From Acidobacteriota bacterium (lineage in GTDB: Bacteria; Acidobacteriota; UBA6911; RPQK01; CBDAPI01): a stretch of DNA of 64,000 bases. A model generated the notes under the pieces. The model was not told the DNA's origin and ran no database searches. It was given only the letters and a program-made list of their open reading frames with translations. This document shows positions 41,359 to 59,421 of this stretch, piece after piece (position 1 is the stretch's first letter; each line of letters begins with the position of its first letter). The position numbers and the translations under genes were made by a program. The stretch lies in assembly GCA_965205615.1 (NCBI GenBank), contig CBDBHK010000033.1:102822-166821 (forward strand), read 5' to 3'.

Positions 41359-41377
41359 GGGCAGTGGAGGCGGCACA

Positions 41378-42838
41378 TTGAGTTCGATCACACCGCTTCT
41401 GGCCGTGCTGGTTTCTGCCCTGGGTGCACTCCTGATTGCCTTCACGGGCCGGCGTCGCGCCAATCTGAGAGAGTTCTGGTCGGTTGCCGCCGGTGTGGCG
41501 ATGTTCGCCCTGGTCGCCAGCATGATCCCGGAGGTTCTGGCCGGCGGCACGCCGGAATGCAAGCTCTTCAGCCTTCTTCCCGGCATTGAGCTCGCTTTTC
41601 GAGTGGATGCCTTCGGTCTCCTCTTTGCCCTGGGGGCCTCGCTCCTGTGGATCCTGACCTCGTTCTATTCGATTGGTTACATGCGTTCCCTCAAAGAGCA
41701 CGCGCAAACCCGCTATTTTGCCTGTTTCGCCCTGGCCCTCTCTGCCACCCTGGGGGTGGCCTTCTCGGCCAACCTGTTCACCCTGTTTCTGTTTTACGAG
41801 GGCCTGACCCTGGTCACCTACCCCCTGGTGGGTCACAAGGAGACCGCCGAAGCCAGGGCCGGCGCCCGCAAGTACGTCATCTATCTTCTGGGCGCCGCCA
41901 AGGTGCTTCTCATCGCTGCCATCATCCTGATCTACAACGTGGCCGGAACCCTGGAGTTCCGCCTGGGCGGGATCCTGCCGTTTGAGGAGGTGACCGCGCA
42001 GCCCCGGCTTCTCTATCTCATTTTCGCGCTGTTCCTGTTCGGATTTGCCAAAAACGCGCTTGTCCCCCTGCACGGGTGGCTGCCGGCGGCTATGGTGGCT
42101 CCCACCCCCGTGAGCGCTTTGCTGCACGCCGTGGCCGTGGTTAAAACCGGCGTGTTTTCCACGCTTCGGGTCTTTCTGTTTATTTTCGGCGCCGACGCCA
42201 TGCGCGAGATCGGCGCCGACCACCTGGCGCTGGGAGCCGCCTCGATAACCATCCTGGTCGGTTCGCTGCTCGCCCTGGGACAGGATAATCTCAAGGCCCG
42301 GCTGGCCTTTTCGACGGTGAGCCAGCTCTCCTACATCATCCTGGGAGCGGCGCTCCTGAACCAGAGCGGGATCCTGGGCGGGGTCTCCCACATCACGAAC
42401 CACGCCGTATCAAAGATCACGCTTTTTCTGTGCGCCGGCTCCATTTACGTGTCCACGCACAAGACCAAGATCAGCCAGATGTCCGGACTGGCCAGGCGTA
42501 TGCCCTGGACCATGGCGGCGTTTGCGGTGGCTTCGCTGAGCATAGTGGGCATTCCCGGTACCTCCGGGTTCGTCTCCAAGTGGTACCTGGCCCTGGGCTC
42601 GCTGGAGCTGCACAGCCTGGCCCTCCTGGGCGTACTTCTGATCAGCTCGCTTCTGAACGCAGCCTACCTTGGCCCGGTCGTGTACAAAGCCTATTTTGAA
42701 GAGGCGCCCCCCACTCACGAGGAGGTCCGCGAGGTTCCCTGGATGGTTGCGCCCCTGGCCATCAGCGCGGCAGCCAGCCTGCTCCTGGGCCTGTACCCGG
42801 CCCCGGTGCTGGAACTGGCCGGAAGGGCCGTACCGTGA
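41378..42838 (+). CDS. Additional NuoL/MrpA-like antiporter-type subunit (486 aa, no long C-terminal helix), extra to the canonical L, M, N set
   Basis: 14-TM antiporter core. FLFYEG (TM5 Glu). FAKNALVPLHGWLPAAMVAPTPVSALLHAVAVVKTG resembles NuoL/MrpA ([26 protein letters not shown]), but the LPDA aspartate is Ala. Lies between nuoK and the 589-aa nuoL. Confidence 0.7.
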   Translation: MSSITPLLAVLVSALGALLIAFTGRRRANLREFWSVAAGVAMFALVASMIPEVLAGGTPECKLFSLLPGIELAFRVDAFGLLFALGASLLWILTSFYSIGYMRSLKEHAQTRYFACFALALSATLGVAFSANLFTLFLFYEGLTLVTYPLVGHKETAEARAGARKYVIYLLGAAKVLLIAAIILIYNVAGTLEFRLGGILPFEEVTAQPRLLYLIFALFLFGFAKNALVPLHGWLPAAMVAPTPVSALLHAVAVVKTGVFSTLRVFLFIFGADAMREIGADHLALGAASITILVGSLLALGQDNLKARLAFSTVSQLSYIILGAALLNQSGILGGVSHITNHAVSKITLFLCAGSIYVSTHKTKISQMSGLARRMPWTMAAFAVASLSIVGIPGTSGFVSKWYLALGSLELHSLALLGVLLISSLLNAAYLGPVVYKAYFEEAPPTHEEVREVPWMVAPLAISAAASLLLGLYPAPVLELAGRAVP

Positions 42839-43098
42839 ACTTCCTGGAGAGGCAGCTCGAAAACCCGGTCCGTCTGGCCCGTATCAAGCGCTGGTTCTAC
42901 CTGGGCCTGGTCGTCGTCGCTGTGGGGGAAATCGTTCTGCCCAGGGTACTTCACGGTTCCCACCCCCATTTCTGGTTCGAGGGCTTTCCCGCCTGGGGAT
43001 CTCTCTACGGATTGGCTTCCTGCGTGGCGATCATCGTCGTGTCCAAGCTGATCGGGAAAGTGTGGCTGATGCGCCGGGAAGACTATTATGACTCTTGA
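42835..43098 (+). CDS. Small 2-TM membrane protein encoded between the extra antiporter subunit and nuoL
   Basis: 87 aa. GTG start overlaps the stop of the upstream gene (GTGA). Its stop overlaps the nuoL ATG (ATGA). Two hydrophobic helices (WFYLGLVVVAVGEIVLP; LYGLASCVAIIVVSKLIG). High third-position GC consistent with coding. Confidence 0.55.
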   Translation: MNFLERQLENPVRLARIKRWFYLGLVVVAVGEIVLPRVLHGSHPHFWFEGFPAWGSLYGLASCVAIIVVSKLIGKVWLMRREDYYDS

Positions 43099-44857
43099 GT
43101 GGGTGCATCCTGGACTAGTGCTGATCCTGGGAGCCTGGGTCCTGCCCTTCCTCAAAGGCCGGGCCAGGAGCCTGGCCATGCTCCTGCTTCCTGCGGCGGC
43201 ACTCGGCATCTGCCTGCGCATGACGCCGGGTATCTACGGCGCAGTGAGTTTCCTCGGACAAGACCTGGTGTTTGGCCGGGTGGACCAGTTGAGCCTGGTC
43301 TTTTCCTACGTTTTCTCGATCATGGCGTTCCTGGGGATGGTCTACGCGCTGCATGTCCAGGATAATGCCCAGCACGTGGCGGCCCTGACCTATGGGGGGG
43401 GCGCGCTGGGGGTCACGTTTGCCGGGGACTTCCTCTCCCTGCTCGTGTTCTGGGAACTCATGGCCCTCTCCTCGGCACTTCTGGTCTGGCAGCGCCGCCA
43501 GACGGCCGCCCTGGCAGCCGGTTTCCGTTATCTGCTGGTCCACGTCGTGGGCGGGCTCCTTCTCCTGGCGGGGATCGTGCTCCACTGGTCTCAGACCGGG
43601 TCGATTGCCTTCGAGGACATGGGCACTCTTGCGGGCGGCATGGCCTGGACCCTCATCCTCGTCGCCTTTCTCATCAACGCGGCCGTCCCACCTCTGGGCG
43701 CCTGGCTTCCGGACGCCTACCCCGAGGCCACGGTTACGGGCGCGGTTTTCATGACCGCCTTTACCACCAAGTCGGCGGTCTACGTCTTGATCCGCGGATT
43801 TCCCGGGACGGAGCTCCTGGTGTGGCTGGGAGCCATCATGGCCGTCTACGGCGTCGTCTACGCCGTGCTGGAAAACGACGCGCGGCGGCTCCTGGCCTAC
43901 CACATCGTCAGCCAGGTCGGTTACATGGTGTGCGGGGTGGGAATCGGGACCTCTCTGGCTCTAAACGGCGCCACGGCCCACGCTTTCGCACACATCCTCT
44001 ACAAGGGGCTTCTTTTCATGGGTGCCGGCGCTGTCCTGGAGGTGACCCGACTGCGAAAGCTGAGCGACATGGGAGGGCTCTACAAGACCATGCCGATCAC
44101 CCTTGGTCTTTACATGGTCGGCGCCTTCGCCATTTCGGCCGTGCCGCTCTTCAGCGGCTTCGTGAGTAAGTCGATGGTCGTGTCAGCCGCCGGCGAGGCT
44201 CACCTCGGACTGATCTTTCTCATGCTCACTCTCGCCTCTGCCGGGACGTTCCTGCACACGGGTCTCAAGCTTCCCTACTACATGTTCTTCGCCAAGGATT
44301 CAGGCCGGCGAGCCCAGGAACCTCCCCGCAATATGCTCCTGGCCATGGGCCTGGCTGCGACAGCGTGCATTGTGATCGGAGTGTTCCCGGGCCTCCTCTA
44401 CCGGCATCTGCCCAACCCGGTGGACTATGCCCCCTATACCCTGCAGCACGTCACCAGCACCCTGGGGATGCTGGGCTTTACGGCGCTGGGCTTCTTCCTG
44501 CTGCTCAAGCATCTCGACCCGGAGCCCAAGATCAGCCTCGACACGGACTGGTTTTATCGCCGGGGTGCGGCGGTCTTCATGATGGTCGTACAGAGGCCAC
44601 TGGCGCATCTGGATTCAGAGTTCGTGGGAGAGATCTATGAGTTTGTCATCCGCAAACCGGTGCTGGGCGTGGCCCGCCTCCTGCGGCAGGTCGACGCCCG
44701 GGTGGTCGATTCAGCGGCGCTGGGCGTGGGCCGTTTGACGCTGGCCTGGAGCCAGGCGTTGAAGACCACTGTCAGCGGCAACGCCCAGCATTACGGGCTG
44801 ATCATGGCGGCCGCAGTCCTGGCACTGCTCGCTCTGGCGCTAATGGCATCACCATGA
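43088..44857 (+). CDS. nuoL: NADH-quinone oxidoreductase subunit L (589 aa, with C-terminal long helix + final TM)
   Basis: FWELMAL TM5 motif, WLPDAYPEA broken-helix motif. C-terminal ~65-residue amphipathic segment followed by a last TM (YGLIMAAAVLALLALALMA) consistent with the NuoL horizontal helix. Confidence 0.7.
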   Translation: MTLEWVHPGLVLILGAWVLPFLKGRARSLAMLLLPAAALGICLRMTPGIYGAVSFLGQDLVFGRVDQLSLVFSYVFSIMAFLGMVYALHVQDNAQHVAALTYGGGALGVTFAGDFLSLLVFWELMALSSALLVWQRRQTAALAAGFRYLLVHVVGGLLLLAGIVLHWSQTGSIAFEDMGTLAGGMAWTLILVAFLINAAVPPLGAWLPDAYPEATVTGAVFMTAFTTKSAVYVLIRGFPGTELLVWLGAIMAVYGVVYAVLENDARRLLAYHIVSQVGYMVCGVGIGTSLALNGATAHAFAHILYKGLLFMGAGAVLEVTRLRKLSDMGGLYKTMPITLGLYMVGAFAISAVPLFSGFVSKSMVVSAAGEAHLGLIFLMLTLASAGTFLHTGLKLPYYMFFAKDSGRRAQEPPRNMLLAMGLAATACIVIGVFPGLLYRHLPNPVDYAPYTLQHVTSTLGMLGFTALGFFLLLKHLDPEPKISLDTDWFYRRGAAVFMMVVQRPLAHLDSEFVGEIYEFVIRKPVLGVARLLRQVDARVVDSAALGVGRLTLAWSQALKTTVSGNAQHYGLIMAAAVLALLALALMASP

Positions 44858-46317
44858 CAGACTACCCGGTCCTGACCGTTACAACCTTTCTGCCCCTGGC
44901 GGGCGCGGTAGCCATCTTGTTTCTGGGCGGCGCGCGGCAGGCACGCTGGATCGCCCTGGCCACAACCCTTGCCACCCTGGCGGTCTCAGCCCCTCTCTAC
45001 AGAGGATTCGACAAGTCGTCGAGCGCACTGCAGTTCGTCGAGTCCTCAGACTGGATCCCGGGGTGGAATATCTCCTACGAGATGGGCGTGGACGGAATCA
45101 GTCTTCCCTTTATTTTCCTTGCGGCTGTCTTGAGTGTCCTCTGCGTGGGCGGTTCGTGGACTGCGGTGGACTCGAGAGTGAAAGAATTCTACGCTGCGCT
45201 GCTGGTTGCCGAAACCGCCATGATCGGGCTCTTCGCCGCCACCAATTTATTTATCTTCTATATTTTCTGGGAGCTGATGATCGTTCCTCTTTTCCTGCTC
45301 ATCGGAGTCTGGGGAGGCCCGGGGCGAGTCTACGCGGCGGTCAAGTTTCTGCTCTTCACCCTGGCCGGAAGCGTTTTGATGCTGGTGGGCATGGTTGCCC
45401 TCTACCACGCCTGCGGCACGCTGAACTTCAAGGAGCTGGCGGCCACCACCCTTCAGCCCGCCTTTCAGGCCGGGCTCTTCGCGGCCTTTCTGGCGGCGTT
45501 TGCGGTGAAGGTTCCCATGTTCCCGGTGCACACCTGGCTCCCGGATGCTCACACGGAGGCCCCGACCGCCGGGAGCGTGATCCTGGCCGGGATCCTCCTC
45601 AAAATGGGCGCCTACGGGTTCCTGCGGGTTTCGCTTCCCATCCTTCCCGACGCCGTACAGCTTTTTCTGACGCCCATGCTGGTGATCTCGGCAGTGGCTA
45701 TCGTGTATGGCGCCTACGTGACTCTGGTCCAGACAGACGTCAAACGCCTCATCGCTTTTTCGAGCGTGAGCCACATGGGCTTCGTCACCCTGGGAATCTT
45801 CACTCTCAACCACAACGGGGTGGAAGGGGCCATCCTGCAGATGATCAACCACGGGATCATCTCCGCGGCGCTGTTCCTGTGCGTGGGCATGATCTACGAG
45901 CGAACCCACTCGCGGGAAATCAAGGACTACGGGGGGGTCGCCAGGATCGCGCCGGTCTACTCGTCCCTGCTGGCGTTCTTTTGCCTGGCCGCCGCGGGTT
46001 TCCCCGGTTTGAACTCCTTCGTGGGAGAGTTCCTGATTATCAGCGGGGCCTTCCAGACCAGGCCCTGGCTCGGCGCCATGGCTGTCTGGGGAGTAGCCCT
46101 GGGGACAGCTTACCTGGTCTGGCTCTACTACCGGGTGGCCATGGGCCGGACGAACTCCGGGCTGGAGGGACTCAAGCTCGAGCTCAATGCCCGCGAGGTG
46201 GCGACTCTGGCCCCTCTGGCGTTGCTGGCACTCTGTCTGGGGCTCTACCCTGAGCTCGTCCTTTCCTATCTTCGTGCTCCCGTGGCCGAACTCCTGGCTG
46301 GAGGAGTAACGCCATGA
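44854..46317 (+). CDS. nuoM: NADH-quinone oxidoreductase subunit M
   Basis: 487 aa. FYIFWELMIVPLFLLIG and HTWLPDAHTEAPTAGSVILAGILLKMGAYG are NuoM hallmarks. Confidence 0.85.
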   Translation: MTDYPVLTVTTFLPLAGAVAILFLGGARQARWIALATTLATLAVSAPLYRGFDKSSSALQFVESSDWIPGWNISYEMGVDGISLPFIFLAAVLSVLCVGGSWTAVDSRVKEFYAALLVAETAMIGLFAATNLFIFYIFWELMIVPLFLLIGVWGGPGRVYAAVKFLLFTLAGSVLMLVGMVALYHACGTLNFKELAATTLQPAFQAGLFAAFLAAFAVKVPMFPVHTWLPDAHTEAPTAGSVILAGILLKMGAYGFLRVSLPILPDAVQLFLTPMLVISAVAIVYGAYVTLVQTDVKRLIAFSSVSHMGFVTLGIFTLNHNGVEGAILQMINHGIISAALFLCVGMIYERTHSREIKDYGGVARIAPVYSSLLAFFCLAAAGFPGLNSFVGEFLIISGAFQTRPWLGAMAVWGVALGTAYLVWLYYRVAMGRTNSGLEGLKLELNAREVATLAPLALLALCLGLYPELVLSYLRAPVAELLAGGVTP

Positions 46318-47735
46318 AGGGTGCGAGCCTGGCTGACCTGGCCTTACTCTGGCCGGAGCTGATTCTGTGCGCGGTGGCCCTGGCTCTGATCCTGGTGGCG
46401 CGCCGGATTCAGAAAGCGCCACCGGCCGCCGCCCTCACGGTTCTCGCAGCGCTGGCCGCCGGACTGGCCTCGGCCTGGGTCCTGGCCCCGGGTCCCCGGA
46501 CCGGGTTTGGCGGTATGATCACCGTGGACGGCTACTCTCAGTTCTTCAAGGTGTTGATCGCCGGGGCCCTGGCCCTGGCTGCGCTTCTGTCCGTGAAACG
46601 AGTCGACACCGATCATGTTCGGCCCGCCGAGTACCATGCCCTGCTCCTTCTGGCCTCGACGGGCATGATGTTGGCCGTCTCAGCCCTGGATCTCCTGACC
46701 CTCTACCTGGGCCTGGAACTCATGACGCTCTGCTCGTACAGCCTGGTCGGCGTCACGGTGGAAAAACAGAGATCGAACGAAGCTGCGATCAAGTATTTCC
46801 TGCTGGCCTCTTTCGCCTCGGCCCTTCTCCTCTACGGCATAGCTGTGGTCTATGGAGTAACGGGCTCTACGGGCTTTACGGCCATTGCCTCGACGCTGTC
46901 TGCGGGCAGTCCGGGGAGCTATCAAATCCTCCTGGCTGCGATCGGTCTGGTGGCCGCGGGACTCGCCTTTAAGATTGCGGCGGTTCCCTTTCATGCCTGG
47001 GCGCCCGACGCCTACCAGGGTGCCAGCGCGCCCGTTGCCGCCTTTCTGGCGGCCGCCTCCAAGGCCGCTGGTTTAGCCGCGCTGGGCCGCGTCTACCTGG
47101 TCGCCTTCGCCTCTCAAGCCCTTGTCCTGTCGGTGGTTCTAGCCGGGCTGGCAGCGCTCTCCATCGTCGTGGGGAGCATCATCGCCCTGGCCCAGACCGA
47201 CATGAAACGCCTGTTGGCGTATTCCTCGATTTCTCATGCGGGATACGCCCTTCTCGGCTTTATGTCCGGATCGGCCGAAGGGGCAGCGGCAACCATGACC
47301 TATGCCTTTCTCTATGTCTTCATGACGCTGGGAGCCTTCGGGATCGTTGTCGCACTGGGCCGGCGCGGCGAGAGTCTCGAAGGTTACCGCGGCCTGGCCG
47401 CGCAGCGACCCGCAACGGCCGCGCTGATGCTGCTTTTCCTCCTTTCCCTGACCGGCATCCCACCCACGGCCGGGTTCGCCGCCAAATTCGTCGTCATCCT
47501 CAGTGCTGTGCGCGCCGGCTATGTGGCGCTGGCAGTCCTGGCCGTGGCTTGTAGTGTGATCTCGGCCTTCGTCTACCTGCGGGTGGCCGTGTTCATGTAC
47601 ATGAGAAAACCCCGGGAGCCTGAGCCTTCCCGCTACCCGCTGGCCGTGTCGGCTGCGCTGGCGGTGGCTGCGCTGGTCACTGTAATCGGCGGAATCTTTC
47701 CGGGTAGTCTCAGCTTCTGGACGGTGGCGCCATGA
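46314..47735 (+). CDS. nuoN: NADH-quinone oxidoreductase subunit N
   Basis: 473 aa. HAWAPDAYQGASAPVAAFLAAASKAAG matches the NuoN TM7 motif. Confidence 0.85.
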   Translation: MKGASLADLALLWPELILCAVALALILVARRIQKAPPAAALTVLAALAAGLASAWVLAPGPRTGFGGMITVDGYSQFFKVLIAGALALAALLSVKRVDTDHVRPAEYHALLLLASTGMMLAVSALDLLTLYLGLELMTLCSYSLVGVTVEKQRSNEAAIKYFLLASFASALLLYGIAVVYGVTGSTGFTAIASTLSAGSPGSYQILLAAIGLVAAGLAFKIAAVPFHAWAPDAYQGASAPVAAFLAAASKAAGLAALGRVYLVAFASQALVLSVVLAGLAALSIVVGSIIALAQTDMKRLLAYSSISHAGYALLGFMSGSAEGAAATMTYAFLYVFMTLGAFGIVVALGRRGESLEGYRGLAAQRPATAALMLLFLLSLTGIPPTAGFAAKFVVILSAVRAGYVALAVLAVACSVISAFVYLRVAVFMYMRKPREPEPSRYPLAVSAALAVAALVTVIGGIFPGSLSFWTVAP

Positions 47736-47789
47736 GGGCGAAAGACATCATGATTCAGGGCACCAACTCGGGATCCGGGGGCGTCGCCA

Positions 47790-47823
47790 TGCTGTGTATA
47801 ATTGGAGTTTGGTAAGGGAGTTC
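47790..47823 (+). promoter_or_regulatory. Candidate internal promoter / RBS between nuoN and nuoA (TATAAT at 47797-47802; aagggag RBS)
   Basis: ctgtgtataattggagtttggtaagggagttcATG read in the 88-bp nuoN-nuoA gap. Confidence 0.4.
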
Positions 47824-48177
47824 ATGAGCGAGTACGCCGGTATCGCAGTCTGTTTTCTCCTGGCCGGAGGGATCACCGGGTTGATGGTGTTGTTGGCCTC
47901 CACGCTGGGTAAGAAGAAGCCCTCGGCCGTAAAGTCCGAGCCCTTCGAGTGCGGGCAGGATCCCCTCTCGATTCCCGGCGGGAAGCTGGCGATCAAGTTC
48001 TATCTGACTGCCATTTTGTTCATCCTGTTCGACGTTGAGCTCGTCTTTCTCTACCCCTGGGCTGTGATTTACCGACAGCTGGGGATGCTGGGCCTGGTCG
48101 AGATGGGAATCTTTCTGGGAATCCTGATGGTGGGCTTCGTTTACGCCTGGGACAACGGTGCCCTGGAATGGAAGTGA
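47824..48177 (+). CDS. nuoA: NADH-quinone oxidoreductase subunit A
   Basis: MSEYAGIAVCFLLAGG...FECGQDP...FDVELVFLYPWA is canonical NuoA. ATG at 47824 with RBS is preferred over the GTG at 47794. Confidence 0.85.
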   Translation: MSEYAGIAVCFLLAGGITGLMVLLASTLGKKKPSAVKSEPFECGQDPLSIPGGKLAIKFYLTAILFILFDVELVFLYPWAVIYRQLGMLGLVEMGIFLGILMVGFVYAWDNGALEWK

Positions 48178-48682
48178 CATGCTGACCGATAAGCTGTTTC
48201 TGACCAGTCGCCTCGATGAGGCTCTGGGTTGGGCGCGCAAGTTTTCCATCTTTCAGTACCCGTTTGTTACCGCGTGCTGCGGCATGGAATATATGGCCAC
48301 GGCCTGTTCTCACTACGACGTCGACCGTTTCGGAGCCGGTTTGCCCCGATTCTCCCCGCGCCAGGCGGACGTGCTTTTCGTTGTGGGCACAATCAGTCAC
48401 AAAATGGCGCCGGTCCTGGAACGCATCCACGAGCAGATGGCCGAGCCCAAATGGGTTGTCGCTTTCGGGGTCTGCACCTGCACGGGTGGCTTCTACGACA
48501 ACTACGCAACCGTGATGGGTATTGACACGATCATACCCGTGGACGTCTACATACCGGGTTGCCCTCCGCGGCCGGAAAACGTTATTGACGGGCTGATGAA
48601 GCTCCAGGACAAAATTCAGGACGAGCACTCCAGCGGCCGCCGATCCGCACCCGAGAGTCGTCCGGACGTTTTGACAGAATGA
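48178..48682 (+). CDS. nuoB: NADH-quinone oxidoreductase subunit B
   Basis: CCGMEYMATA, GVCTCTGG, PGCPPRP: the N2 cluster cysteines of NuoB. Confidence 0.9.
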
Positions 48683-49260
48683 GTATCTCCACTCTCATTG
48701 AGTCTGTCAGCGACCGCTTCCCCGAGGCTGTAGCGGCTTCTCACGCTTATCGTGGCGACGAAACCGTGGTTTTGCGCCGGGAGTTCCTGGTCGAGGTCGC
48801 ACGCTTTCTCAAAGAGGACCCGTCCCTGCAAATGAACTTCCTCATGGATGTGACAGCCGTGGACTATTCTTCTTTCGGGAAGAGTTCCGCGCCGGCTTTC
48901 TTCGCATCCTCGGGTGTCGGTGTGAATCCCCTGACCCAGATCCAGGATGAGGACCCCTGGCCCGGACCCCCGGGGGATGAGCGTTTTGCGGTCGTGTACC
49001 ACTTCTATTCTCTGAAGTACAAGCACCGCCTGCGGCTGGTGGTTCCCGTGGAGGAGGGGGAGCCCGAAGTAGATTCGCTGAACTCGCTGTGGGGCGGAGC
49101 AAACTGGCTCGAGCGTGAAGTCTGGGACATGTTTGGAATCCGATTCCGTGGACATCCGGATCTCAAGCGCATTCTCATGTACGAAGAGTTCGAGGGACAT
49201 GCGCTGCGCAAGGACTACCCCGTCAATAAGCGTCAACCTTTGACCGGACCCCTGAACTGA
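48679..49260 (+). CDS. nuoC: NADH-quinone oxidoreductase subunit C
   Basis: 193 aa. NuoC motifs (ANWLEREVWDMFGIRFRGHPDLKRIL). Confidence 0.85.
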   Translation: MSISTLIESVSDRFPEAVAASHAYRGDETVVLRREFLVEVARFLKEDPSLQMNFLMDVTAVDYSSFGKSSAPAFFASSGVGVNPLTQIQDEDPWPGPPGDERFAVVYHFYSLKYKHRLRLVVPVEEGEPEVDSLNSLWGGANWLEREVWDMFGIRFRGHPDLKRILMYEEFEGHALRKDYPVNKRQPLTGPLN

Positions 49261-49303
49261 TGAAAACCCCAACCTCCAATCGTCGCTCCCCGGCTCAAGC
49301 TCG

Positions 49304-50680
49304 ATGATGCCCGAATCAGCCCCTCCCAGGGAGACCTCCCAACACGAGGCCGCGGACCTCGAGACCCGGGACATGATGCTCAACATCGGCCCCGCCCACC
49401 CGGCCATGCACGGGATCGTCAGGATCGTGGCGGAACTCGACGGGGAGCAGATCCAGGAAGCTGAAGTGGAGATCGGCTATCTCCACCGCGGCTTTGAGAA
49501 GATGGCGGAAGTAGTGGACTACAACGGCGTCATCCCCTACACCGATCGCCTCAACTACGTCTCGCCGCTCATCAACAACATGGGCTACTGCATGACCGTC
49601 GAGAAACTGCTCGGGATATCGGTCCCGGAGCGCTGCCACTACGTCAGGGTCATCACTTCGGAGATCTCCCGCATCTCGGACCATCTCACTTGCGTGGGAG
49701 CGACGGCCATGGAGCTGGGCGCTTTCAGCGTTTTCCTCTACATGATCAAGGCCCGGGAGTATCTCTGGGAGCTGGTGGAGATGGTCACCGGGGCGCGCCT
49801 GACGGTCAGCTACTGTCGCGTCGGCGGCGTGAAGGCCGACCTTCCCGAGGACTTTGCCGAGGGTTGTCGCAAGGCCTTCGAGGAAACCCGCAAGGTCCTG
49901 GACGAGGCCTCCGGTCTGCTGACGCGCAACCGGATTTTCACCGACCGAATGAACGACACGGGAGTGATCTCGGCGGAAGACGCCATCTCCTACGGCATCA
50001 CCGGCCCCTTTCTGCGCGCCAGTGGCGCCGACTATGACGTTCGGAAGGACTGCCCCTACTCCGTCTACGACCGGATCCCTTTCGATGTGCCCGTCGGAAC
50101 CCGTGGCGACAACATGGATCGCTACCTGGTTCGCATGGAGGAGATGGAGCAGTCCATGCGCATCGTGGAGACGGCGCTGCGAGATCTGCCTTCCGGCCCG
50201 GTTCAGGTCCACCCGGAGACGGGTCGGCCGATTCCGGCCGCGGAGATGGTGGATCTTGCCAAGGTGGGTGACATCGCGGCCATTTCGGGCGGAAGCGCCA
50301 TCACCGGTCCAACCCTGGAGGGATCCGGCCGCGACCGGTATCCATCCATAGCCACGGACGAAAAACGCGCCTTCCTCCCTCCCAAAGAGGATACCTATGG
50401 CAACATCGAGGGACTCATGCACCACTTTAAGCTGGTCATGTACGGCCACGGTGTGCGGCCGCCCAGGGGAGAGGTGTACTTCCCCGTCGAGGGAGCTAAC
50501 GGAGAACTCGGGTTTTACGTGGTGAGCGATGGAGCGGGGACCGCCTACCGGGTTCGGGTTCGTCCCCCCTGCTTCGCCATTATGTCGGCCCTGCCCGAGC
50601 TTGTGGTGGGCGATATGATGGCCGACCTGGTCCCCACCTTCGGGTCCGTCAATATGATCGGAGGAGAGCTCGACCGATGA
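49304..50680 (+). CDS. nuoD: NADH-quinone oxidoreductase subunit D
   Basis: MMLNIGPAHPAMHGIVRIV...IGYLHRGFEK...RPPCFA is canonical NuoD/49-kDa. Alternative start at 49373 is likely. Contains a ~40-aa insertion relative to compact NuoD. Confidence 0.85.
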   Translation: MMPESAPPRETSQHEAADLETRDMMLNIGPAHPAMHGIVRIVAELDGEQIQEAEVEIGYLHRGFEKMAEVVDYNGVIPYTDRLNYVSPLINNMGYCMTVEKLLGISVPERCHYVRVITSEISRISDHLTCVGATAMELGAFSVFLYMIKAREYLWELVEMVTGARLTVSYCRVGGVKADLPEDFAEGCRKAFEETRKVLDEASGLLTRNRIFTDRMNDTGVISAEDAISYGITGPFLRASGADYDVRKDCPYSVYDRIPFDVPVGTRGDNMDRYLVRMEEMEQSMRIVETALRDLPSGPVQVHPETGRPIPAAEMVDLAKVGDIAAISGGSAITGPTLEGSGRDRYPSIATDEKRAFLPPKEDTYGNIEGLMHHFKLVMYGHGVRPPRGEVYFPVEGANGELGFYVVSDGAGTAYRVRVRPPCFAIMSALPELVVGDMMADLVPTFGSVNMIGGELDR

Positions 50681-52476
50681 AGCTTTCCGATCTTGAGCCC
50701 GGGGCCAGAGAGATCCTGCAACGCTACGAACGATCCAGGGCGGCTATGTTGCCGGTGTTGTGGCTCGTCCAGGAAAACCAGGGGTACGTCTCTCAGGAGG
50801 CGGAGGTCTGGGTGGCGAGCATCCTGAGTGTAGCCCGTGCCCAGGTACGCGAGGCGGTCTCCTTTTACAACATGTTCCACACACGGCCGGTGGGCCGTCG
50901 CGAGCTTCGAGTGTGCACCAGTCTGCCCTGTATGTTGCGGGGTGCCGGGGAGTTACTGGAGCAGATTCAGGAGCGCTGGAAGATTCGTCCGGGCCAGACC
51001 ACGGCAGGTGGGGAGGTCACGCTCACCGAGGTCGAGTGTCTCTGTGCCTGCGAGATGTCCCCTATGGCCCAGCTCGACGAAGCTTTTCTCGGGCCCCTGG
51101 AGAGAGGGACACTGGAAACCGTCCTGCGGGCCGGGCTCGAGGATCCCGAAGATTCGCGACCCCTTTCCGAGCCTGAGCCCTATATCTCCACAGACGGTCC
51201 GGTGCTTTCCACGCGCTTCGAGAACCCGGCCGGAATCTGGTTGCAAGACTACGTGACCGACAATGGGTATGAGGGCGCTGCCAGGGCTCTCACTTCCATG
51301 ACACCGGAGCAGGTGATCGAGGAGATATCCGGAGCCAACTTGCGGGGTCTCGGCGGCGCGGGGTTTCCAGCCGGCAGAAAATGGTCCTTCGTGCCCAGGG
51401 AATCGCAAAAGCCCAAGTTCCTGGTGGCGAACGCAGACGAAGGGGAACCGGGCACTTTCAAGGATCGCTACATCATGGAGCGCGACCCGCACGCACTCAT
51501 CGAAGGCATGATTATTGCCGCCTATGCCATCGGGAGTCACAAGGCCTACGTGTATATTCGGGGCGAGTACTTCCGGTCGGCCAGGCGTTTACAACGCGCC
51601 CTCGATGAAGCCTACAGCCAGGGCTGGCTGGGTAAGGATATCCAGGGGTCCGGTTTTGATCTGGATGTGGTCATTCACCGGGGCGCGGGGGCCTATATCT
51701 GCGGCGAAGAAACCGCGCTCCTGACTTCGCTCGAGGGCGGGAAGGGTTTCCCCAAGCTCAAGCCTCCGTTCCCCGCCATTTCGGGTCTCTTTCAATGCCC
51801 GACCATCGTCAACAACATTGAGACTCTCGCCTGTGTCCCATTCATTCTGAACCATGGAGCCGAGCGTTTTGCCGGCATTGGCACGGACCGGCAGGGCGGT
51901 ACGCGGCTCTTTTGCGTGAGCGGACATGTGGTCCGACCGGGGGTCTATGAGGAGCCGGTCGGCATCACCCTGAGAGAACTGATCGAGAAGGCGGGGGGTG
52001 TCCGGGACGGCAAGAGGCTCAAGGCCGTCATCCCCGGAGGCATTTCGGCCAAAATTCTGACCGCCGATGAGATTGACGTGGCCATGGACTTTGACTCCCT
52101 GATGGCGGCCGGCAGCATGGCCGGATCGGGGGGAGTGATCGTGATGGACGAGAGCACCTGCATGGTCGAGGCACTCGACTCCGCGGCCCGGTTTTTCGCC
52201 GACGAGTCGTGCGGACAATGCTCGCCCTGCCGTGAGGGTACGGGGTGGGTCCATCGGATTGTCCGCCGTATTGTGGAAGGCAGGGGGAACCTCCAGGATC
52301 TGGACCAGTTGCTCGCCATCGCCGGCGACATGGAAGGCAATACGATCTGCGTCTTCGCCGACGCAGCCGCCTGGCCTGTCCAGTCTTACATCGCGAAATT
52401 TCGGGACGAGTTCGAGGACTACATTCGGAGCGGCCGTGGAGCCGGGAAAAAGGAGGCCGATGCATGCCCAGCCTGA
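50677..52476 (+). CDS. nuoEF: Fused NuoE-NuoF (24-kDa 2Fe-2S subunit joined to 51-kDa FMN/NADH-binding subunit) in one 599-aa ORF
   Basis: Residues ~1-160 are NuoE (CTSLPC...VECLCACEMSP cysteine pairs). A ~90-aa linker follows. Then comes NuoF (GLGGAGFPAGRKW FMN/NADH motifs, ESCGQCSPCREG N3 cluster). No stop codon lies between them in this sequence. Confidence 0.75.
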   Translation: MKLSDLEPGAREILQRYERSRAAMLPVLWLVQENQGYVSQEAEVWVASILSVARAQVREAVSFYNMFHTRPVGRRELRVCTSLPCMLRGAGELLEQIQERWKIRPGQTTAGGEVTLTEVECLCACEMSPMAQLDEAFLGPLERGTLETVLRAGLEDPEDSRPLSEPEPYISTDGPVLSTRFENPAGIWLQDYVTDNGYEGAARALTSMTPEQVIEEISGANLRGLGGAGFPAGRKWSFVPRESQKPKFLVANADEGEPGTFKDRYIMERDPHALIEGMIIAAYAIGSHKAYVYIRGEYFRSARRLQRALDEAYSQGWLGKDIQGSGFDLDVVIHRGAGAYICGEETALLTSLEGGKGFPKLKPPFPAISGLFQCPTIVNNIETLACVPFILNHGAERFAGIGTDRQGGTRLFCVSGHVVRPGVYEEPVGITLRELIEKAGGVRDGKRLKAVIPGGISAKILTADEIDVAMDFDSLMAAGSMAGSGGVIVMDESTCMVEALDSAARFFADESCGQCSPCREGTGWVHRIVRRIVEGRGNLQDLDQLLAIAGDMEGNTICVFADAAAWPVQSYIAKFRDEFEDYIRSGRGAGKKEADACPA

Positions 52477-54101
52477 CCATCAACGGGCGTGAGACCACGG
52501 TTCCTGACGGAACCACGGTTATCCAGGCGGCCGAGAAGATGGGAATCTTCGTTCCCCGCTACTGCTATCATCCCGGGCTCTCTATCGCGGGCAACTGCCG
52601 CATCTGCCTCGTCGAAGTGGAAAAATTCCCCAAGCTCCAGATTGCCTGTAACCTGCCGGCCACGGAGGGGATGGTCGTGCACACCCTGAGCGACAAAGCC
52701 GAGGCCGGCCGCCGCGCCGTACTGGAGTTTCTGCTTGCCAACCACCCTCTGGACTGCCCGGTCTGCGACCAGTCCGGTGAGTGTGACCTGCAGAACTTCT
52801 ACATGAACTTCGGGCTCTACGACCCGCGCTTCAGGGAGCACAAAGTCAAGAAGCGAAAAGCCGTTGAAATAGGTCCGCATGTCATGCTGGATCAGGAACG
52901 CTGTATCCTCTGCTCCCGCTGTGTCCGCTTTACCGACGAGATCACGCGGACCGGGGAGTTCGGGATCTTTAACCGCGGAGACCGGGCTGAGCTGGGTCTG
53001 TGCCCCGACGAGGTGCTCGACAATCCCTACTCGGCCAACGTGGTGGACATCTGCCCGGTGGGGGCCCTGACCGAGGCTGATTTCCGTTTCAAGGCCAGGG
53101 TCTGGTACCTCTCCAGCGCTCCCACGGTATGCAACGGGTGCAGCCAGGGCTGTAACATGGATCTCCACTTTGTGCTCGACAGACCCCACCTGAACGACGG
53201 GGCACGGGTGGTGCGCATCAAGCCCCGTCCCAACCCGGATGTCAACCAGTGGTGGCTGTGCGATGAAGGGCGCTACGGCTTTGACTGGGTCGACCGGGAT
53301 CGCCTGGACAAGGTACGCGGCCCGTCGCCGGACGCGACCTGGGAGCGGGCCCTTACAGAGATCTCACTCGCCCTGGCCGGGTTGCGCCGGGAGGGAGCCG
53401 CAGCCCGGGAAGGGGCAGACTGTCGGATCGGCGTCATCGCTTCGGCCCAACTCACCACCGAGGAGCTCTTTTTGATCCGGGAAATCTTTCAGACCGCCCT
53501 GGGCGCCCGGGTGACGGCCCTGGTTCCTGAGGAACCGGGAACCAGCGATGACTTCCTGATCAAGGCGGATAAGAATCCGAATACCGCGGGTGCAACTCTG
53601 CTGGGCCTGGCCGGCCCGGACTCGCCGGAAGCCCGCCAGCTGGTGGACGAAGCGCTGGGCGGAACCCTCGACGTTCTGTGGGTCTTCGGGCACGATCTGG
53701 TGCGACCCTTCGGAGAAAAAACAGTCCGGCGACTGTCGGAGCAAGTGCCTCTCTTCGTGTTCTCGGGAACCAACAAAAATGCCACCGCGGCTCTGGCACA
53801 CTGGGTGCTTCCCACCGCAGCCTACATGGAGAAGGACGGGACCTTTGTGAACTGCCATGGCCGCGTCCAGCGCATCGGTTGCGCTTTTCCGCCTCTCGCG
53901 GACTCCCGGGAAGAGTGGCGCATTCTCCTGGAGGTGGCCACGAAGCTGGGTCTGTCTTTCGATTGGCGGAAACCGGAGGAGATCTTTGGGGGGATGAGCA
54001 GGACCTTGGCGCCTTTTCAGGGATTGAGTTATGCAAGGATCGGGGCCCAGGGGGTTGACCTGGGGACGGCCCAGCCCCCGGCCGGGAGGGCTGCACCATG
54101 A
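52464..54101 (+). CDS. nuoG: NADH-quinone oxidoreductase subunit G (short, 545-aa form)
   Basis: Starts at ATG 52464 (MPSLTINGRETTVPDG), overlapping the nuoEF end. 2Fe-2S CRICLVEV, HPLDCPVCDQSGEC, CILCSRCVRF, CPVGAL cluster motifs. Confidence 0.85.
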   Translation: MPSLTINGRETTVPDGTTVIQAAEKMGIFVPRYCYHPGLSIAGNCRICLVEVEKFPKLQIACNLPATEGMVVHTLSDKAEAGRRAVLEFLLANHPLDCPVCDQSGECDLQNFYMNFGLYDPRFREHKVKKRKAVEIGPHVMLDQERCILCSRCVRFTDEITRTGEFGIFNRGDRAELGLCPDEVLDNPYSANVVDICPVGALTEADFRFKARVWYLSSAPTVCNGCSQGCNMDLHFVLDRPHLNDGARVVRIKPRPNPDVNQWWLCDEGRYGFDWVDRDRLDKVRGPSPDATWERALTEISLALAGLRREGAAAREGADCRIGVIASAQLTTEELFLIREIFQTALGARVTALVPEEPGTSDDFLIKADKNPNTAGATLLGLAGPDSPEARQLVDEALGGTLDVLWVFGHDLVRPFGEKTVRRLSEQVPLFVFSGTNKNATAALAHWVLPTAAYMEKDGTFVNCHGRVQRIGCAFPPLADSREEWRILLEVATKLGLSFDWRKPEEIFGGMSRTLAPFQGLSYARIGAQGVDLGTAQPPAGRAAP

Positions 54102-55192
54102 TGGAAGTTCTGATCATCAAGGTGGCGCTGGCCGGCGTCGTTTTTTTCGGGATCTTGAACTTCGCAGGGTTTCACACCTGGGTGGAGCGCAAACAGTCGG
54201 CCCTGATCCAGGACCGGATCGGTGCCAATCGGGCCTCGATCTTCGGATTCCGGGCGCTGGGACTTTTCCACGGCCTGGCCGATGTGCTCAAGATGTTCAC
54301 CAAAGAGGACATCGTCCCCACAGGGGCCGACAGGACGCTCCACACCCTGGCCCCGCTGTTCTCGGTGTTTTTTGCTCTGGTGGCCTTTGCCGCGATCCCT
54401 TTTGGAGACCGCCTCATCCTGGGCGACGGTCTGGTTATCGACCTGCAGGTGGCCAAGATCGACGCGGCTCTGCTCTATGTCTTCGCCATGCTCTCGCTCG
54501 GGGTCTACGGCGTGATTCTGGCCGGCTTCGCCTCGGGCAGCAACTACGCCATCATCGGGGGGCTGAGAGCCATGGCGCAGATGATCTCCTACGAGATCGC
54601 CCTGGGCATTGCCGTTGTCGGAGTGATCATGGTCTATGGGACCATGGATCTGGGTGAACTGGTGCGGGGCCAGGGGTACCTGATCGGCGGGTGGATCCCC
54701 TTCTGGGGCTTTCTCGCCCAGCCGGTCGCCTTCTTCATCTTCGTGACGGCGGCCCTGGCTGAAACCAAGCGACTTCCCTTCGACCTGCCGGAAGGCGAGT
54801 CGGAGATTATCGGATACTTTGTGGAGTACAGCGGCATGAAGTTCGGGATGTTTTTCCTCACGGATTTCCTGGAAACCATCATGGTCGCCTGTCTGGCCAC
54901 AACGCTTTTCTTCGGCGGCTGGCAGGTGCCTTTTCTGATGCCGGACGGTTTCCACTTCCCCTGGGGGGCACAGCTGCCGGTTCCCCATTTGATGTATGTG
55001 CTTCTCGGGGTGGCCAGCTTTTCAACCAAGGTCGTGATTTTCTGCTGGTTCTTCATGCAACTGCGCTGGACCCTGCCGCGCTTCCGCTACGACCAGCTCA
55101 TGAGTCTGGGCTGGAAGGGGCTCTTTCCCATCGCAGTGGCGAACGTGGTGGTGACAGCCGTAGTGCTGGTCTTTTTCGGGGAGGCGTCGTGA
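54098..55192 (+). CDS. nuoH: NADH-quinone oxidoreductase subunit H
   Basis: 364 aa. NuoH/ND1 motifs (SGSNYAIIGGLRAMAQMISYEI, EAKRLPFDLPEGESE). Confidence 0.9.
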   Translation: MMEVLIIKVALAGVVFFGILNFAGFHTWVERKQSALIQDRIGANRASIFGFRALGLFHGLADVLKMFTKEDIVPTGADRTLHTLAPLFSVFFALVAFAAIPFGDRLILGDGLVIDLQVAKIDAALLYVFAMLSLGVYGVILAGFASGSNYAIIGGLRAMAQMISYEIALGIAVVGVIMVYGTMDLGELVRGQGYLIGGWIPFWGFLAQPVAFFIFVTAALAETKRLPFDLPEGESEIIGYFVEYSGMKFGMFFLTDFLETIMVACLATTLFFGGWQVPFLMPDGFHFPWGAQLPVPHLMYVLLGVASFSTKVVIFCWFFMQLRWTLPRFRYDQLMSLGWKGLFPIAVANVVVTAVVLVFFGEAS

Positions 55193-55818
55193 TGGCCGTA
55201 AAAGTAGTCAGCAGACCCGAATTGACTTTCTGGGAAAAGCTCTACGTTCCGCAGATCCTGTGCGGCCTCAAAATCACCTCGGCCCATTTCTTCCGAAATC
55301 TTTTTCTTCACATCCTCCACCTCATCGGTCGCTTCAAGCATCTGCCCGCCTCGGTGACGATTCAATACCCCGATGAGCTGAGGCCGCTCATGTCGCGCTT
55401 CCGCAGTCGCCACCGGCTCACTCTGCGCGAGGATGACACCCCGCGCTGTGTGGGGTGCATGCTTTGCGAGACCGTCTGCCCGGCCAAATGCATCACGATC
55501 GTGCCCGGCGAGCACCCCGATCCCCACATCGAGAAGTATCCAATCCGCTTCGACATCGACCTGGGGATTTGCGTTTACTGCGGGTACTGCGTCGAGGCCT
55601 GCCCGGAGGACGCCATCCGAATGGACACAGGTATCCTCGACATCGCGGCCTACTCCAGGGAAGCAATGCAACTGGACATCCATGAGCTCATGGACCCGAA
55701 GTTACGGAAGCCGATCAAGGACTGCAGCCTGGAGTTCCCCCACCAGTGCGAGCTGCACGGTGGAGACATGAAGGGCAGCTGGGAAGCGGTGGATGGCTCG
55801 GTGGGACAAAAAGCCTAG
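55189..55818 (+). CDS. nuoI: NADH-quinone oxidoreductase subunit I (with ~50-aa C-terminal extension)
   Basis: Two 4Fe-4S ferredoxin motifs (CVGCMLCETVCP, CVYCGYCVEACP). 209 aa, longer than typical NuoI. Confidence 0.85.
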   Translation: MMAVKVVSRPELTFWEKLYVPQILCGLKITSAHFFRNLFLHILHLIGRFKHLPASVTIQYPDELRPLMSRFRSRHRLTLREDDTPRCVGCMLCETVCPAKCITIVPGEHPDPHIEKYPIRFDIDLGICVYCGYCVEACPEDAIRMDTGILDIAAYSREAMQLDIHELMDPKLRKPIKDCSLEFPHQCELHGGDMKGSWEAVDGSVGQKA

Positions 55819-57664: not shown

Positions 57665-57667
57665 CTA

Positions 57668-59367: not shown

Positions 59368-59421
59368 TGGAGTTCCCCCGGTTTCGTGGACACCTAATCC
59401 TTTGGGAGAATGGAGGACACG

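What the first reader, a model, noticed from the sequence alone, without database searches (positions are those of the whole stretch)
50677..52476. nuoE and nuoF fused into one 599-aa ORF
The 24-kDa [2Fe-2S] subunit (CTSLPC / CLCAC cysteines) and the 51-kDa FMN/NADH subunit (GLGGAGFPAGRKW; ESCGQCSPCREG) are normally separate, tightly interacting proteins. Here they are one polypeptide joined by a ~90-aa Pro/Glu-rich linker, with no stop codon between them. Such fusions are uncommon. If real, the fusion fixes the 1:1 stoichiometry of the NADH-dehydrogenase module.
Basis: seen in the sequence. Interest (0 to 1): 0.55.

Follow-up and report, generated by a model that had tools for sequence, protein, structure and literature searches.

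The report
Fused NuoE–NuoF subunit of complex I
The two NADH-oxidising subunits of respiratory complex I (NuoE and NuoF) really are made as one 599-residue protein here, but the fusion is conserved in hundreds of Acidobacteriota, Planctomycetota and Omnitrophota genomes, so it is a modest evolutionary curiosity and not a rarity or an error.

Summary
The 599-codon ORF at 50677-52476 (+) is real and encodes a NuoE domain (aa 11-151), a short connector (aa 152-176) and a full NuoF (aa 177-583). All four N1a cysteines, the FMN/NADH motifs and the N3 cysteines are intact.

It is not a sequencing artefact. The identical ORF occurs on independent contigs. All 240 listed homologues from two protein searches, and 73 of 80 species-representative loci, carry the same fusion. 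The linker has a fixed length (25 aa in 65 of 73), a conserved PEPxP[FY] motif and coding-type substitution patterns. No conserved internal start exists.

The gene sits in a translationally coupled nuo cluster (J-K-MrpD-like-small ORF-MrpD-like-M-N-A-B-C-D-EF-G-H-I). This cluster is collinear with the published "green complex I" of rhizobial symbiotic plasmids. There, and in Rokubacteria, nuoE and nuoF are separate but in the same frame (TAA GCC ATG; TAG ATG). Loss of one stop codon therefore explains the fusion.

NuoE-like/NuoF-like fusions are already known structurally (formate dehydrogenase beta, HoxF, HydB). I found no paper describing an EF fusion in complex I itself. Verdict: a genuine, conserved, modestly interesting variant of a known system.

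The parts
50677..52476 (+). nuoEF: single ORF of 599 codons plus TGA, encoding the fused NuoE-NuoF flavoprotein
   Evidence: ORF list and translation. Pfam and NCBIfam domains. Identical protein on independent contigs.
50707..51129 (+). NuoE (24-kDa, thioredoxin-like [2Fe-2S] N1a) domain, aa 11-151. Cluster ligands are C80, C85, C121 and C125, with an extra clade-specific C123.
   Evidence: PF01257 E 9e-43. Best PDB matches are NDUFV2/NuoE with the Cys residues aligned. The Cys residues are invariant in alignment A1.
51130..51204 (+). Connector, aa 152-176 (AGLEDPEDSRPLSEPEPYISTDGPV), containing the conserved PEPxP[FY]-I[SC]xDGPV motif
   Evidence: Length is 25 aa in 65 of 73 intact homologues, and the motif is conserved. 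The pos1+2/pos3 divergence ratio is 0.51 against 0.87 for the C-tail. AF2 pLDDT is 79-87. There is no stop and no ATG with a Shine-Dalgarno.
51205..52425 (+). NuoF (51-kDa) part, aa 177-583. It holds the FMN loop GLGGAGF, NADEGEPGTFKDR, GAGAYICGEETAL, and the N3 ligands C512, C515, C518 and C558.
   Evidence: TIGR01959 at 608 bits, above the 558.65 cut-off. Residue-level alignments to 8qby_F, 8x9v_F, 8e9g_F and 2fug_1.
52426..52473 (+). Poorly conserved C-terminal tail, aa 584-599. Its last 13 nt (including the stop codon) overlap the start of nuoG.
   Evidence: Conservation 0.50. Divergence ratio 0.87. pLDDT about 30.
49304..50680 (+). nuoD (458 aa, with an insertion of about 50 aa). Its TGA overlaps the nuoEF ATG (ATGA), and a GGAGGAG lies upstream.
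   Evidence: PF00346 and TIGR01962. Junction sequence.
52464..54101 (+). nuoG (545 aa from ATG 52464, with an AAGGAGG 7 nt upstream). It overlaps the nuoEF end by 13 nt.
   Evidence: Pfam domains start at aa 76 of the longer GTG ORF. Junction sequence. The gene caller gives the same 545-aa product.
47794..49260 (+). nuoA (47794-48177), nuoB (48158-48682) and nuoC (48679-49260)
   Evidence: Pfam Oxidored_q4, Oxidored_q6 and Complex1_30kDa.
54098..55818 (+). nuoH (54098-55192) and nuoI (55189-55818)
   Evidence: Pfam NADHdh and Fer4 dicluster.
40517..47735 (+). Membrane-arm genes placed upstream of nuoA: nuoJ 40517-41056, nuoK 41053-41358, MrpD-like 41378-42838, small 87-aa ORF 42835-43098, MrpD-like with NuoL-type C-terminus 43088-44857, nuoM 44854-46317, nuoN 46314-47735
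   Evidence: Pfam and NCBIfam. ORF list. Collinear with S. meliloti pSymA and with the related loci.

Best explanation
The ORF encodes one polypeptide that combines the two flavoprotein-module subunits of proton-pumping NADH:quinone oxidoreductase (complex I).

How it works. The C-terminal NuoF part binds NADH and FMN and holds the [4Fe-4S] cluster N3, which passes electrons on to NuoG. The N-terminal NuoE part holds the off-pathway [2Fe-2S] cluster N1a. An ordered connector of about 25 residues ties the end of the NuoE fold to the start of NuoF. The enzyme should therefore work like an ordinary NuoE:NuoF heterodimer, with co-translation and 1:1 stoichiometry built in (inferred).

Context. The gene belongs to a translationally coupled cluster of the 'green complex I' type. 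That type has a rearranged gene order and two MrpD-like subunits in place of NuoL.

Origin. The fusion most likely arose once, by loss of the nuoE stop codon in an ancestor where nuoE and nuoF lay head-to-tail in the same reading frame. That arrangement still exists in Rokubacteria (TAG ATG) and in rhizobial pSymA (TAA GCC ATG). The connector occupies the position of the NuoE C-terminal tail of the rhizobial protein.

Shown versus inferred. Shown: the ORF, domain identity, cofactor motifs, conservation of the fusion and linker, operon context, and the in-frame split relatives. Inferred: that the protein stays uncleaved, that it assembles into complex I, the direction of the evolutionary event, and any selective benefit.
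For: ORF and domains:
- The ORF has no internal stop.
- Domain models place NuoE at aa 11-151 and NuoF at aa 177-583.
- Both halves match complex I subunits best: 8qby_F at 464 bits and NDUFV2 at 96 bits, with the ligand Cys aligned.

Conservation of the fusion:
- All 120 listed hits at 80-100% identity, and all 120 in a second sub-clade, are 548-638 aa with both Pfam domains.
- 73 of 80 species-representative loci carry intact ORFs of 593-628 aa. They come from Acidobacteriota (five orders or classes), Planctomycetota, Omnitrophota and Elusimicrobia.
- The identical ORF occurs on contigs of two samples, at 4x and 29x coverage.

Linker:
- It is 25 aa in 65 of 73 sequences and carries a conserved motif.
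- Its substitution pattern indicates purifying selection (ratio 0.51).
- Its predicted pLDDT is 79-87, in a model with pTM 0.87.
- No conserved internal start exists: 2 of 73 have an SD-like motif.

Operon and relatives:
- The nuoD/EF junction is an ATGA overlap and the EF/nuoG overlap is 13 nt.
- The same cluster order is seen in most loci, and the cluster is collinear with S. meliloti pSymA, including the 87-aa ORF.
- The 'green complex I' description comes from PMC9040806 and PMC7415380.
- In-frame split junctions occur in Rokubacteria and S. meliloti.
- Rokubacteria share the clade markers ECLCAC and GLGGAGF and are sister to the fused clade in an NJ tree.

Structure:
- The model superposes over its full length on the naturally fused FDH1 beta chain 7xqw_B: 580 columns, TM 0.78/0.85.
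Against: - There is no protein-level evidence. Post-translational cleavage in the connector cannot be excluded.
- TIGR01958 (nuoE_fam) scores 133.7 bits, just below its 142.4 cut-off.
- The NJ tree has no support values, and other fused lineages (P0244-P0247) fall nearby. The direction (fusion versus secondary fission in Rokubacteria) and the number of events are therefore not firmly established.
- One locus (L070) has a frameshift inside the NuoE part.
- The relative orientation of the E and F domains was compared only with a fused FDH chain, not directly with a NuoE:NuoF heterodimer.
Confidence: 0.85

Rival explanations
1. Artefact: a sequencing or assembly error hides a stop codon and start in the junction, and the organism really has separate nuoE and nuoF.
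For: One relative (L070) shows a frameshift in the NuoE part. One database entry (P0243) is a noisy, frameshifted copy of this very gene. Errors of this kind do occur in such assemblies.
Against: - The identical 599-aa product occurs on independent contigs of two samples, one at 29x coverage, and on up to 6 contigs.
- 73 intact fused ORFs occur in different species, with constant linker length.
- The linker has a coding-type substitution pattern.
Confidence: 0.01
2. One gene, two proteins: the fused ORF is translated but yields separate NuoE and NuoF. This could happen by internal initiation near V176 (GTG) or by proteolytic cleavage at the conserved PEPxP[FY] connector.
For: - GTG is the codon at position 176 in 54 of 73 sequences.
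- The connector motif is conserved, which could in principle mark a processing site.
- The split ancestors functioned with two chains.
Against: - Only 2 of 73 sequences have an SD-like motif upstream of that codon, and GTG is simply the common Val codon in these GC-rich genomes.
- An in-frame ATG anywhere in aa 150-200 occurs in only 16 of 73.
- The connector is predicted to be ordered (pLDDT 79-87).
- The naturally fused FDH1 beta chain is solved as one uncleaved chain with the same architecture.
Confidence: 0.07
3. Not complex I: the protein is the diaphorase subunit of a soluble NAD-linked enzyme (HoxF, FdsB or HydB type) that merely sits near nuo genes.
For: Solved fused chains with this architecture belong to formate dehydrogenases and hydrogenases. 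The model's best full-length structural match is FDH1 beta.
Against: - Sequence scores are far higher for complex I NuoF (464 bits against 309 for 7e5z_B) and for NuoE/NDUFV2 (96 bits against 36).
- TIGR01959 passes its equivalog cut-off.
- The gene overlaps nuoD and nuoG at both ends.
- It sits between them in 70 or more loci.
- No hydrogenase or FDH catalytic gene is adjacent.
Confidence: 0.02
4. Reverse history: the fused gene is ancestral for this complex I lineage, and the in-frame split forms in Rokubacteria and rhizobia arose by secondary fission, through gain of a stop and start within the connector.
For: - Split forms keep the same reading frame with the stop and start directly adjacent, which is also what a fission by point mutation would leave.
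- Other fused lineages lie nearby in the crude tree.
- Fused E-F chains are frequent in the wider superfamily.
Against: - Canonical complex I, and the more distant green complex I of rhizobia, are split.
- Fused sequences form a single clade with one split sister group. A single fusion is the more parsimonious reading.
Confidence: 0.2

Closest known systems
'Green complex I' of rhizobia (second nuo cluster on Sinorhizobium meliloti pSymA; Degli Esposti & Martinez-Romero 2016, as described in PMC9040806 and PMC7415380)
   Same: - The rearranged gene order is the same: J-K-MrpD-like-small ORF-MrpD-like-M-N-A-B-C-D-E-F-G.
- Two MrpD-like subunits replace NuoL, at 60% and 69% identity.
- The 87-aa ORF is conserved at 40% identity.
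- The NuoF part is 55% identical and the NuoE part 39%.
   Different: - In pSymA, nuoE and nuoF are two genes, in frame and separated by TAA GCC.
- nuoH and nuoI lie on the opposite strand there.
- The rhizobial proteins have ECLGAC and GRGGAGF instead of ECLCAC and GLGGAGF.
Beta subunit of Methylorubrum extorquens NAD-dependent formate dehydrogenase 1 (PDB 7xqw_B, 7vw6_B, 7e5z_B, 8j83_B)
   Same: It is a single chain with an N-terminal NuoE-like domain followed by a NuoF-like FMN/[4Fe-4S] domain. The model superposes over 573-582 columns at TM 0.76-0.85 and rmsd about 5.2 A.
   Different: Sequence identity is only 33-34%. It is part of a soluble formate dehydrogenase and is not encoded in a nuo cluster. 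The sequence score is far lower than to complex I subunits.
HoxF / HydB / NfnB-type subunits of NAD-linked and electron-bifurcating hydrogenases (e.g. 5xf9_A, 7p5h_B, 7t2r_B, 8a6t_B)
   Same: A NuoE-like or thioredoxin-like N-terminal domain is fused to a NuoF-like core.
   Different: They carry extra ferredoxin-like domains. The domain arrangement differs (rmsd 10-13 A over the full length). They partner with hydrogenase subunits, and a separate NuoE-like subunit (HydC or HoxE) is usually also present.
Canonical split NuoE + NuoF (Nqo2 + Nqo1) of complex I: Paracoccus 8qby, M. smegmatis 8e9g, T. thermophilus 2fug, Aquifex NuoEF 6hl3
   Same: The folds, cofactor ligands and catalytic motifs are the same. 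Identity in the F part is 44-51%.
   Different: These are two polypeptides from two genes.
NuoCD and NuoBCD fusions of complex I (E. coli and clade E; Thermodesulfobacteriota)
   Same: The principle is the same: adjacent, physically interacting peripheral-arm subunits are encoded as one chain and conserved within a clade.
   Different: Those fusions affect the quinone module, not the NADH module. They are well documented, whereas I found no documentation of an EF fusion.

Membership tests
Complex I subunit NuoF (51 kDa) | Scores above the curated equivalog cut-off of TIGR01959 | tested here: met
   608 bits against a cut-off of 558.65, covering aa 177-583 and model positions 2-410 of 410.
Complex I subunit NuoF (51 kDa) | FMN/NADH-binding motifs and four Cys ligands of cluster N3 | tested here: met
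   GLGGAGFPAGRKW, NADEGEPGTFKDR, GAGAYICGEETAL, C512-x2-C515-x2-C518 and C558 align to 8qby_F, 8x9v_F, 8e9g_F and 2fug_1. They are invariant in A1. The deviations are R to L and S to G.
Complex I subunit NuoE (24 kDa) | Thioredoxin-like [2Fe-2S] domain model | tested here: met
   PF01257 at 146 bits against a cut-off of 24.8, aa 11-151. Best PDB matches are NDUFV2/NuoE.
Complex I subunit NuoE (24 kDa) | Scores above the curated cut-off of TIGR01958 (nuoE_fam) | tested here: not met
   133.7 bits against a cut-off of 142.4. This is a near miss for a domain embedded in a longer chain.
Complex I subunit NuoE (24 kDa) | Four Cys ligands of cluster N1a (CxxxxC ... CxxxC) | tested here: met
   C80, C85, C121 and C125 align to the ligands of NDUFV2. 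They are invariant in 67 sequences.
Complex I (NADH:quinone oxidoreductase) gene cluster | Encoded among the other nuo genes, between nuoD and nuoG | tested here: met
   A to I and J to N were all identified. Junctions overlap. The context is the same in more than 70 loci.
'Green complex I' (Degli Esposti & Martinez-Romero 2016) | Two MrpD-like subunits in place of canonical NuoL | tested here: met
   - NF006236 scores 652 bits for one subunit and NF009310 scores 750 bits (above its cut-off) for the other.
- The NuoL model TIGR01974 scores only 195 and 149 bits against a cut-off of 407.
- The definition is taken from PMC9040806.
'Green complex I' (Degli Esposti & Martinez-Romero 2016) | Rearranged gene order, collinear with the rhizobial pSymA cluster | tested here: met
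   All subunits match L081 in the same order from J to G. The annotation of CP073679.1 agrees. [quoted passage not shown] The original 2016 paper was not available to read.
NAD-dependent formate dehydrogenase beta / HoxF diaphorase subunits | Encoded next to, and working with, a formate dehydrogenase or hydrogenase catalytic subunit | tested here: not met
   The neighbours are nuoD and nuoG. The FDH gamma and HoxE models score below their cut-offs.
Complex I flavoprotein module (function) | NADH oxidation activity and assembly into the membrane complex as one uncleaved chain | not testable with these tools
   This needs proteomics, purification or cryo-EM.

The most novel reading that the evidence does not exclude
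The EF-fused enzymes may form a large, so far undescribed branch of 'green complex I'. This branch dominates in Acidobacteriota and occurs in Planctomycetota, Omnitrophota and Elusimicrobia. In it, the conserved, ordered PEPxP[FY] connector would be a new structural element of the N-module with a role of its own, such as docking onto NuoG or another partner, or tuning access to cluster N1a, and not a passive tether. Its clade-specific changes (extra Cys in ECLCAC, R to L in the FMN loop) would go with altered redox or ROS properties.
Probability: 0.12. Interest if true: 0.45.

Novelty: new variant of a known kind. Interest (0 to 1): 0.3.

Why it matters
It adds a third, N-module fusion (EF) to the known CD and BCD fusions of complex I. 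It also shows a simple route for such fusions: adjacent genes that are already in the same frame, followed by loss of one stop codon.

Practically, annotation pipelines label these proteins just 'NuoF'. Subunit-counting surveys may therefore score such genomes as lacking NuoE and as having an incomplete complex I. That would understate complex I in Acidobacteriota and Planctomycetota.

A natural single-chain NuoEF could also be a convenient object for expressing the flavoprotein module. The effect on enzyme mechanism is probably small.

Tried and rejected
- The cluster look-up for names of the ten closest proteins returned no names. Organism identity came from the genome scan instead.
- Literature searches for 'nuoEF fusion' and similar phrases found only unrelated uses: cbb3 oxidase fusion in Nitrospina, ActB in MBNT15, and a ciliate hydrogenosomal hydrogenase with NuoE/NuoF-like domains (PMC6993867).
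- Spero 2015, the 2025 GBE survey and Degli Esposti 2015 mention only CD and BCD fusions.
- Chadwick et al. 2018 and Degli Esposti & Martinez-Romero 2016 are not held in the library. I could not check whether either mentions the EF fusion.
- I first suspected a '2M' complex I (second NuoM). I rejected this because NCBIfam shows two MrpD-like subunits plus one NuoM and one NuoN, which matches green complex I.
- I considered that the low-complexity look of the connector meant a disordered spacer. I rejected this because of its fixed length, the conserved motif and the pLDDT of 79-87.
- I looked for a hidden internal start and found none conserved.
- The exhaustive representative search could not tell which of the other fused lineages belong to complex I, because it gives no context.
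Full report
**1. Observation**

The window holds an ATG-initiated ORF at 50677-52476 (+) of 599 codons, with no internal stop.
- Pfam places a thioredoxin-like [2Fe-2S] domain (PF01257) at aa 11-151. The NuoF domains follow at 218-388 (Complex1_51K), 411-477 (SLBB) and 500-581 (NADH_4Fe-4S).
- The NCBIfam NuoF equivalog TIGR01959 covers aa 177-583 at 608 bits (cut-off 558.65). The NuoE model TIGR01958 scores 133.7 bits, just under its 142.4 cut-off.
- The one factual error is the linker. The gap between the domain models is aa 152-176, about 25 residues (AGLEDPEDSRPLSEPEPYISTDGPV), not ~90.

**2. Is it real?**

The junction DNA has no in-frame stop and no ATG with a ribosome-binding site.

Conservation in homologues:
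- The same 599-aa protein is on record from several contigs and on contigs of two ENA samples, at 4x and 29x coverage.
- In the 5.8-billion-protein collection, all 120 listed hits (80-100% identity) carry both Pfam domains. So do all 120 hits of a second search seeded with a 61%-identical Omnitrophota homologue.
- A scan of one genome per GTDB species returned 80 loci. Of these, 73 contain an intact fused ORF of 593-628 aa, 4 are cut by a contig end (one of them also from the split-type group), 1 has a frameshift inside the NuoE part (L070), and 3 Rokubacteria loci are truly split.

Behaviour of the linker:
- It is 25 aa in 65 of 73 sequences (range 22-33) and carries a conserved motif, PEPxP[FY]-I[SC]xDGPVLS.
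- Its codons show more change at third positions than at first and second positions. The ratio is 0.51, compared with 0.40 for NuoE, 0.25 for NuoF and 0.87 for the unconstrained C-terminal tail. It is therefore translated in this frame and under constraint.
- A conserved internal start is absent. Only 2 of 73 sequences have an SD-like motif before the Val-176 codon.

A sequencing artefact is thus excluded for practical purposes.

**3. What the two halves are**

- The N-terminal 150 residues align best to mitochondrial NDUFV2 and bacterial NuoE. C80, C85, C121 and C125 fall on the four N1a ligands, and these are invariant in a 67-sequence alignment.
- The C-terminal part aligns over its whole length to NuoF of Paracoccus, Xanthomonas, Mycobacterium and Thermus, with the catalytic motifs and N3 cysteines conserved. 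Structure-based identities to these and other complex I NuoF chains are 44-51%.
- The deviations are R to L in LRGLGGAGF and S to G in NADEGEPG.
- From my own knowledge, prompted by the title of PDB entry 9q8i: Pro84 and Met130 correspond to the positions (V96 and N142 in E. coli NuoE) that set the N1a potential, and here they are of the mitochondrial type. This suggests a low-potential N1a. It is an inference only.

**4. Context**

- The nuoD stop overlaps the nuoEF start (ATGA), and nuoG starts at ATG 52464 behind AAGGAGG, overlapping the end of nuoEF by 13 nt.
- The cluster reads nuoJ, nuoK, an MrpD-like gene, an 87-aa ORF, a second MrpD-like gene with a NuoL-type C-terminus, nuoM, nuoN, nuoA, B, C, D, EF, G, H, I.
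- No ORF reaches the NuoL model cut-off. The two extra subunits score as Mrp antiporter subunit D.
- This arrangement recurs in most Acidobacteriota and Planctomycetota loci.
- It matches the 'green complex I' described for rhizobia, in which two MrpD-like subunits replace NuoL and the gene order is rearranged (PMC9040806; PMC7415380).
- The S. meliloti pSymA cluster is collinear with the window from nuoJ to nuoG, including the small ORF.

**5. Origin of the fusion**

- In pSymA, nuoE and nuoF are separate but in the same frame, separated by TAA GCC. In three Rokubacteria genomes the junction is TAG ATG.
- Rokubacteria share the clade markers ECLCAC and GLGGAGF with the fused proteins, whereas S. 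meliloti and other lineages do not. Rokubacteria are sister to a single clade of all fused sequences in a neighbour-joining tree of the NuoF domain (no support values).
- The connector of the fused proteins occupies the same position, and has about the same length, as the C-terminal tail of S. meliloti NuoE.
- The simplest account is loss of the nuoE stop codon in an ancestor with this in-frame arrangement. A secondary fission in Rokubacteria is not excluded.

**6. Structure**

- AlphaFold2 with the 67-sequence alignment gives pTM 0.87 and mean pLDDT 82. The connector scores 79-87, and low confidence is confined to cofactor loops and the C-terminal tail.
- Foldseek against the PDB finds complex I NuoF chains for the F part (TM about 0.86 relative to the target).
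- The whole chain superposes on the naturally fused beta subunit of Methylorubrum extorquens formate dehydrogenase 1: 573-582 columns, TM 0.76-0.85, rmsd about 5.2 A.
- Fused HydB-type chains align with a different domain arrangement (rmsd 10-13 A).
- The fused architecture is therefore structurally plausible and has a solved precedent.

**7. How common is it?**

- An exhaustive HMMER search of 1.84 billion cluster representatives collapses the window's clade to essentially one 50%-identity cluster.
- About 45 of the best 150 other representatives align in a single stretch across both domains. E-F fusion is therefore frequent in the wider NuoF superfamily.
- Within complex I itself, the surveys I could read report only CD and BCD fusions. 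Phrase searches found no description of an EF fusion. Sources label these proteins simply 'NuoF'.
- Two key papers could not be read.

**8. Verdict**

This is a genuine, conserved single-chain NuoE-NuoF in a green-type complex I. It most likely functions like the ordinary heterodimer, with fixed stoichiometry. It is a minor variant of a known system. Its main consequences are for annotation (an apparent lack of NuoE) and as a tidy example of fusion by stop-codon loss between in-frame neighbours.

Noticed in passing
window 41378-44857: There is no canonical NuoL. Instead there are two Mrp-antiporter-D-like subunits (486 aa and 589 aa, the latter with a NuoL-type C-terminal tail), separated by a conserved 87-aa membrane ORF (42835-43098). 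This gives four antiporter-like subunits in total and matches the published 'green complex I' of rhizobia.
   Followed up: partly
window 40517-55818: The gene order is permuted relative to the usual nuoA-N: J-K-L'-x-L''-M-N precede A-B-C-D-EF-G-H-I on the same strand. This order is conserved in most related Acidobacteriota and Planctomycetota loci. Omnitrophota and Planctomycetia loci (L065, L067, L068, L072) instead have N, M and L-like genes downstream on the opposite strand.
   Followed up: partly
window 55997-62477: Several insertion-sequence genes lie directly after nuoI: a DDE_Tnp_1_4 transposase (55997-57259, +), a DDE_3 endonuclease (57833-58774, -), and an rve integrase with an HTH_Tnp_1 partner (60979-62477, -). 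They do not interrupt the nuo cluster.
   Followed up: no
window 49304-50680: NuoD is unusually long (458 aa), with an insertion of roughly 50 residues relative to the Pfam and TIGR models (two matched stretches). NuoG is short (545 aa).
   Followed up: no
window 51037-51051 (aa 121-125) and 51346-51366 (aa 224-230): Two clade-specific deviations occur in cofactor motifs: an extra, nearly invariant Cys in ECLCAC (307 of 315 sequences), and Leu replacing the usual Arg in the FMN loop, GLGGAGF (312 of 315). Both are shared with the split Rokubacteria genes but not with S. meliloti or other lineages.
   Followed up: partly
window 39862-40311: A CBS-pair domain ORF (149 aa) lies just upstream of nuoJ. 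A homologue lies next to the cluster in 12 of 81 loci examined, including S. meliloti pSymA (annotated as a CBS domain-containing protein). The flanks were too short to judge the others.
   Followed up: partly
L009, L021-L023, L025, L031, L046 versus L001-L008: MAGs labelled Planctomycetota and Acidobacteriota share 73-81% identical NuoEF and the same cluster order. This identity is unexpectedly high for different phyla and suggests horizontal transfer of the whole cluster or mis-binning.
   Followed up: no
L015 1816-3666: One homologue (labelled Chloroflexota) has a tandem GGPLE-type repeat insertion of about 20 aa near the end of the NuoE domain, giving a 619-aa protein.
   Followed up: no
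L070 1989-3738; protein P0243: There are two error-like copies. L070 has a frameshift or deletion within the NuoE part (around aa 127-145). P0243 is a 470-aa frameshift-ridden version of the window's own gene, and it serves as the cluster representative in the 50%-identity library.
   Followed up: partly
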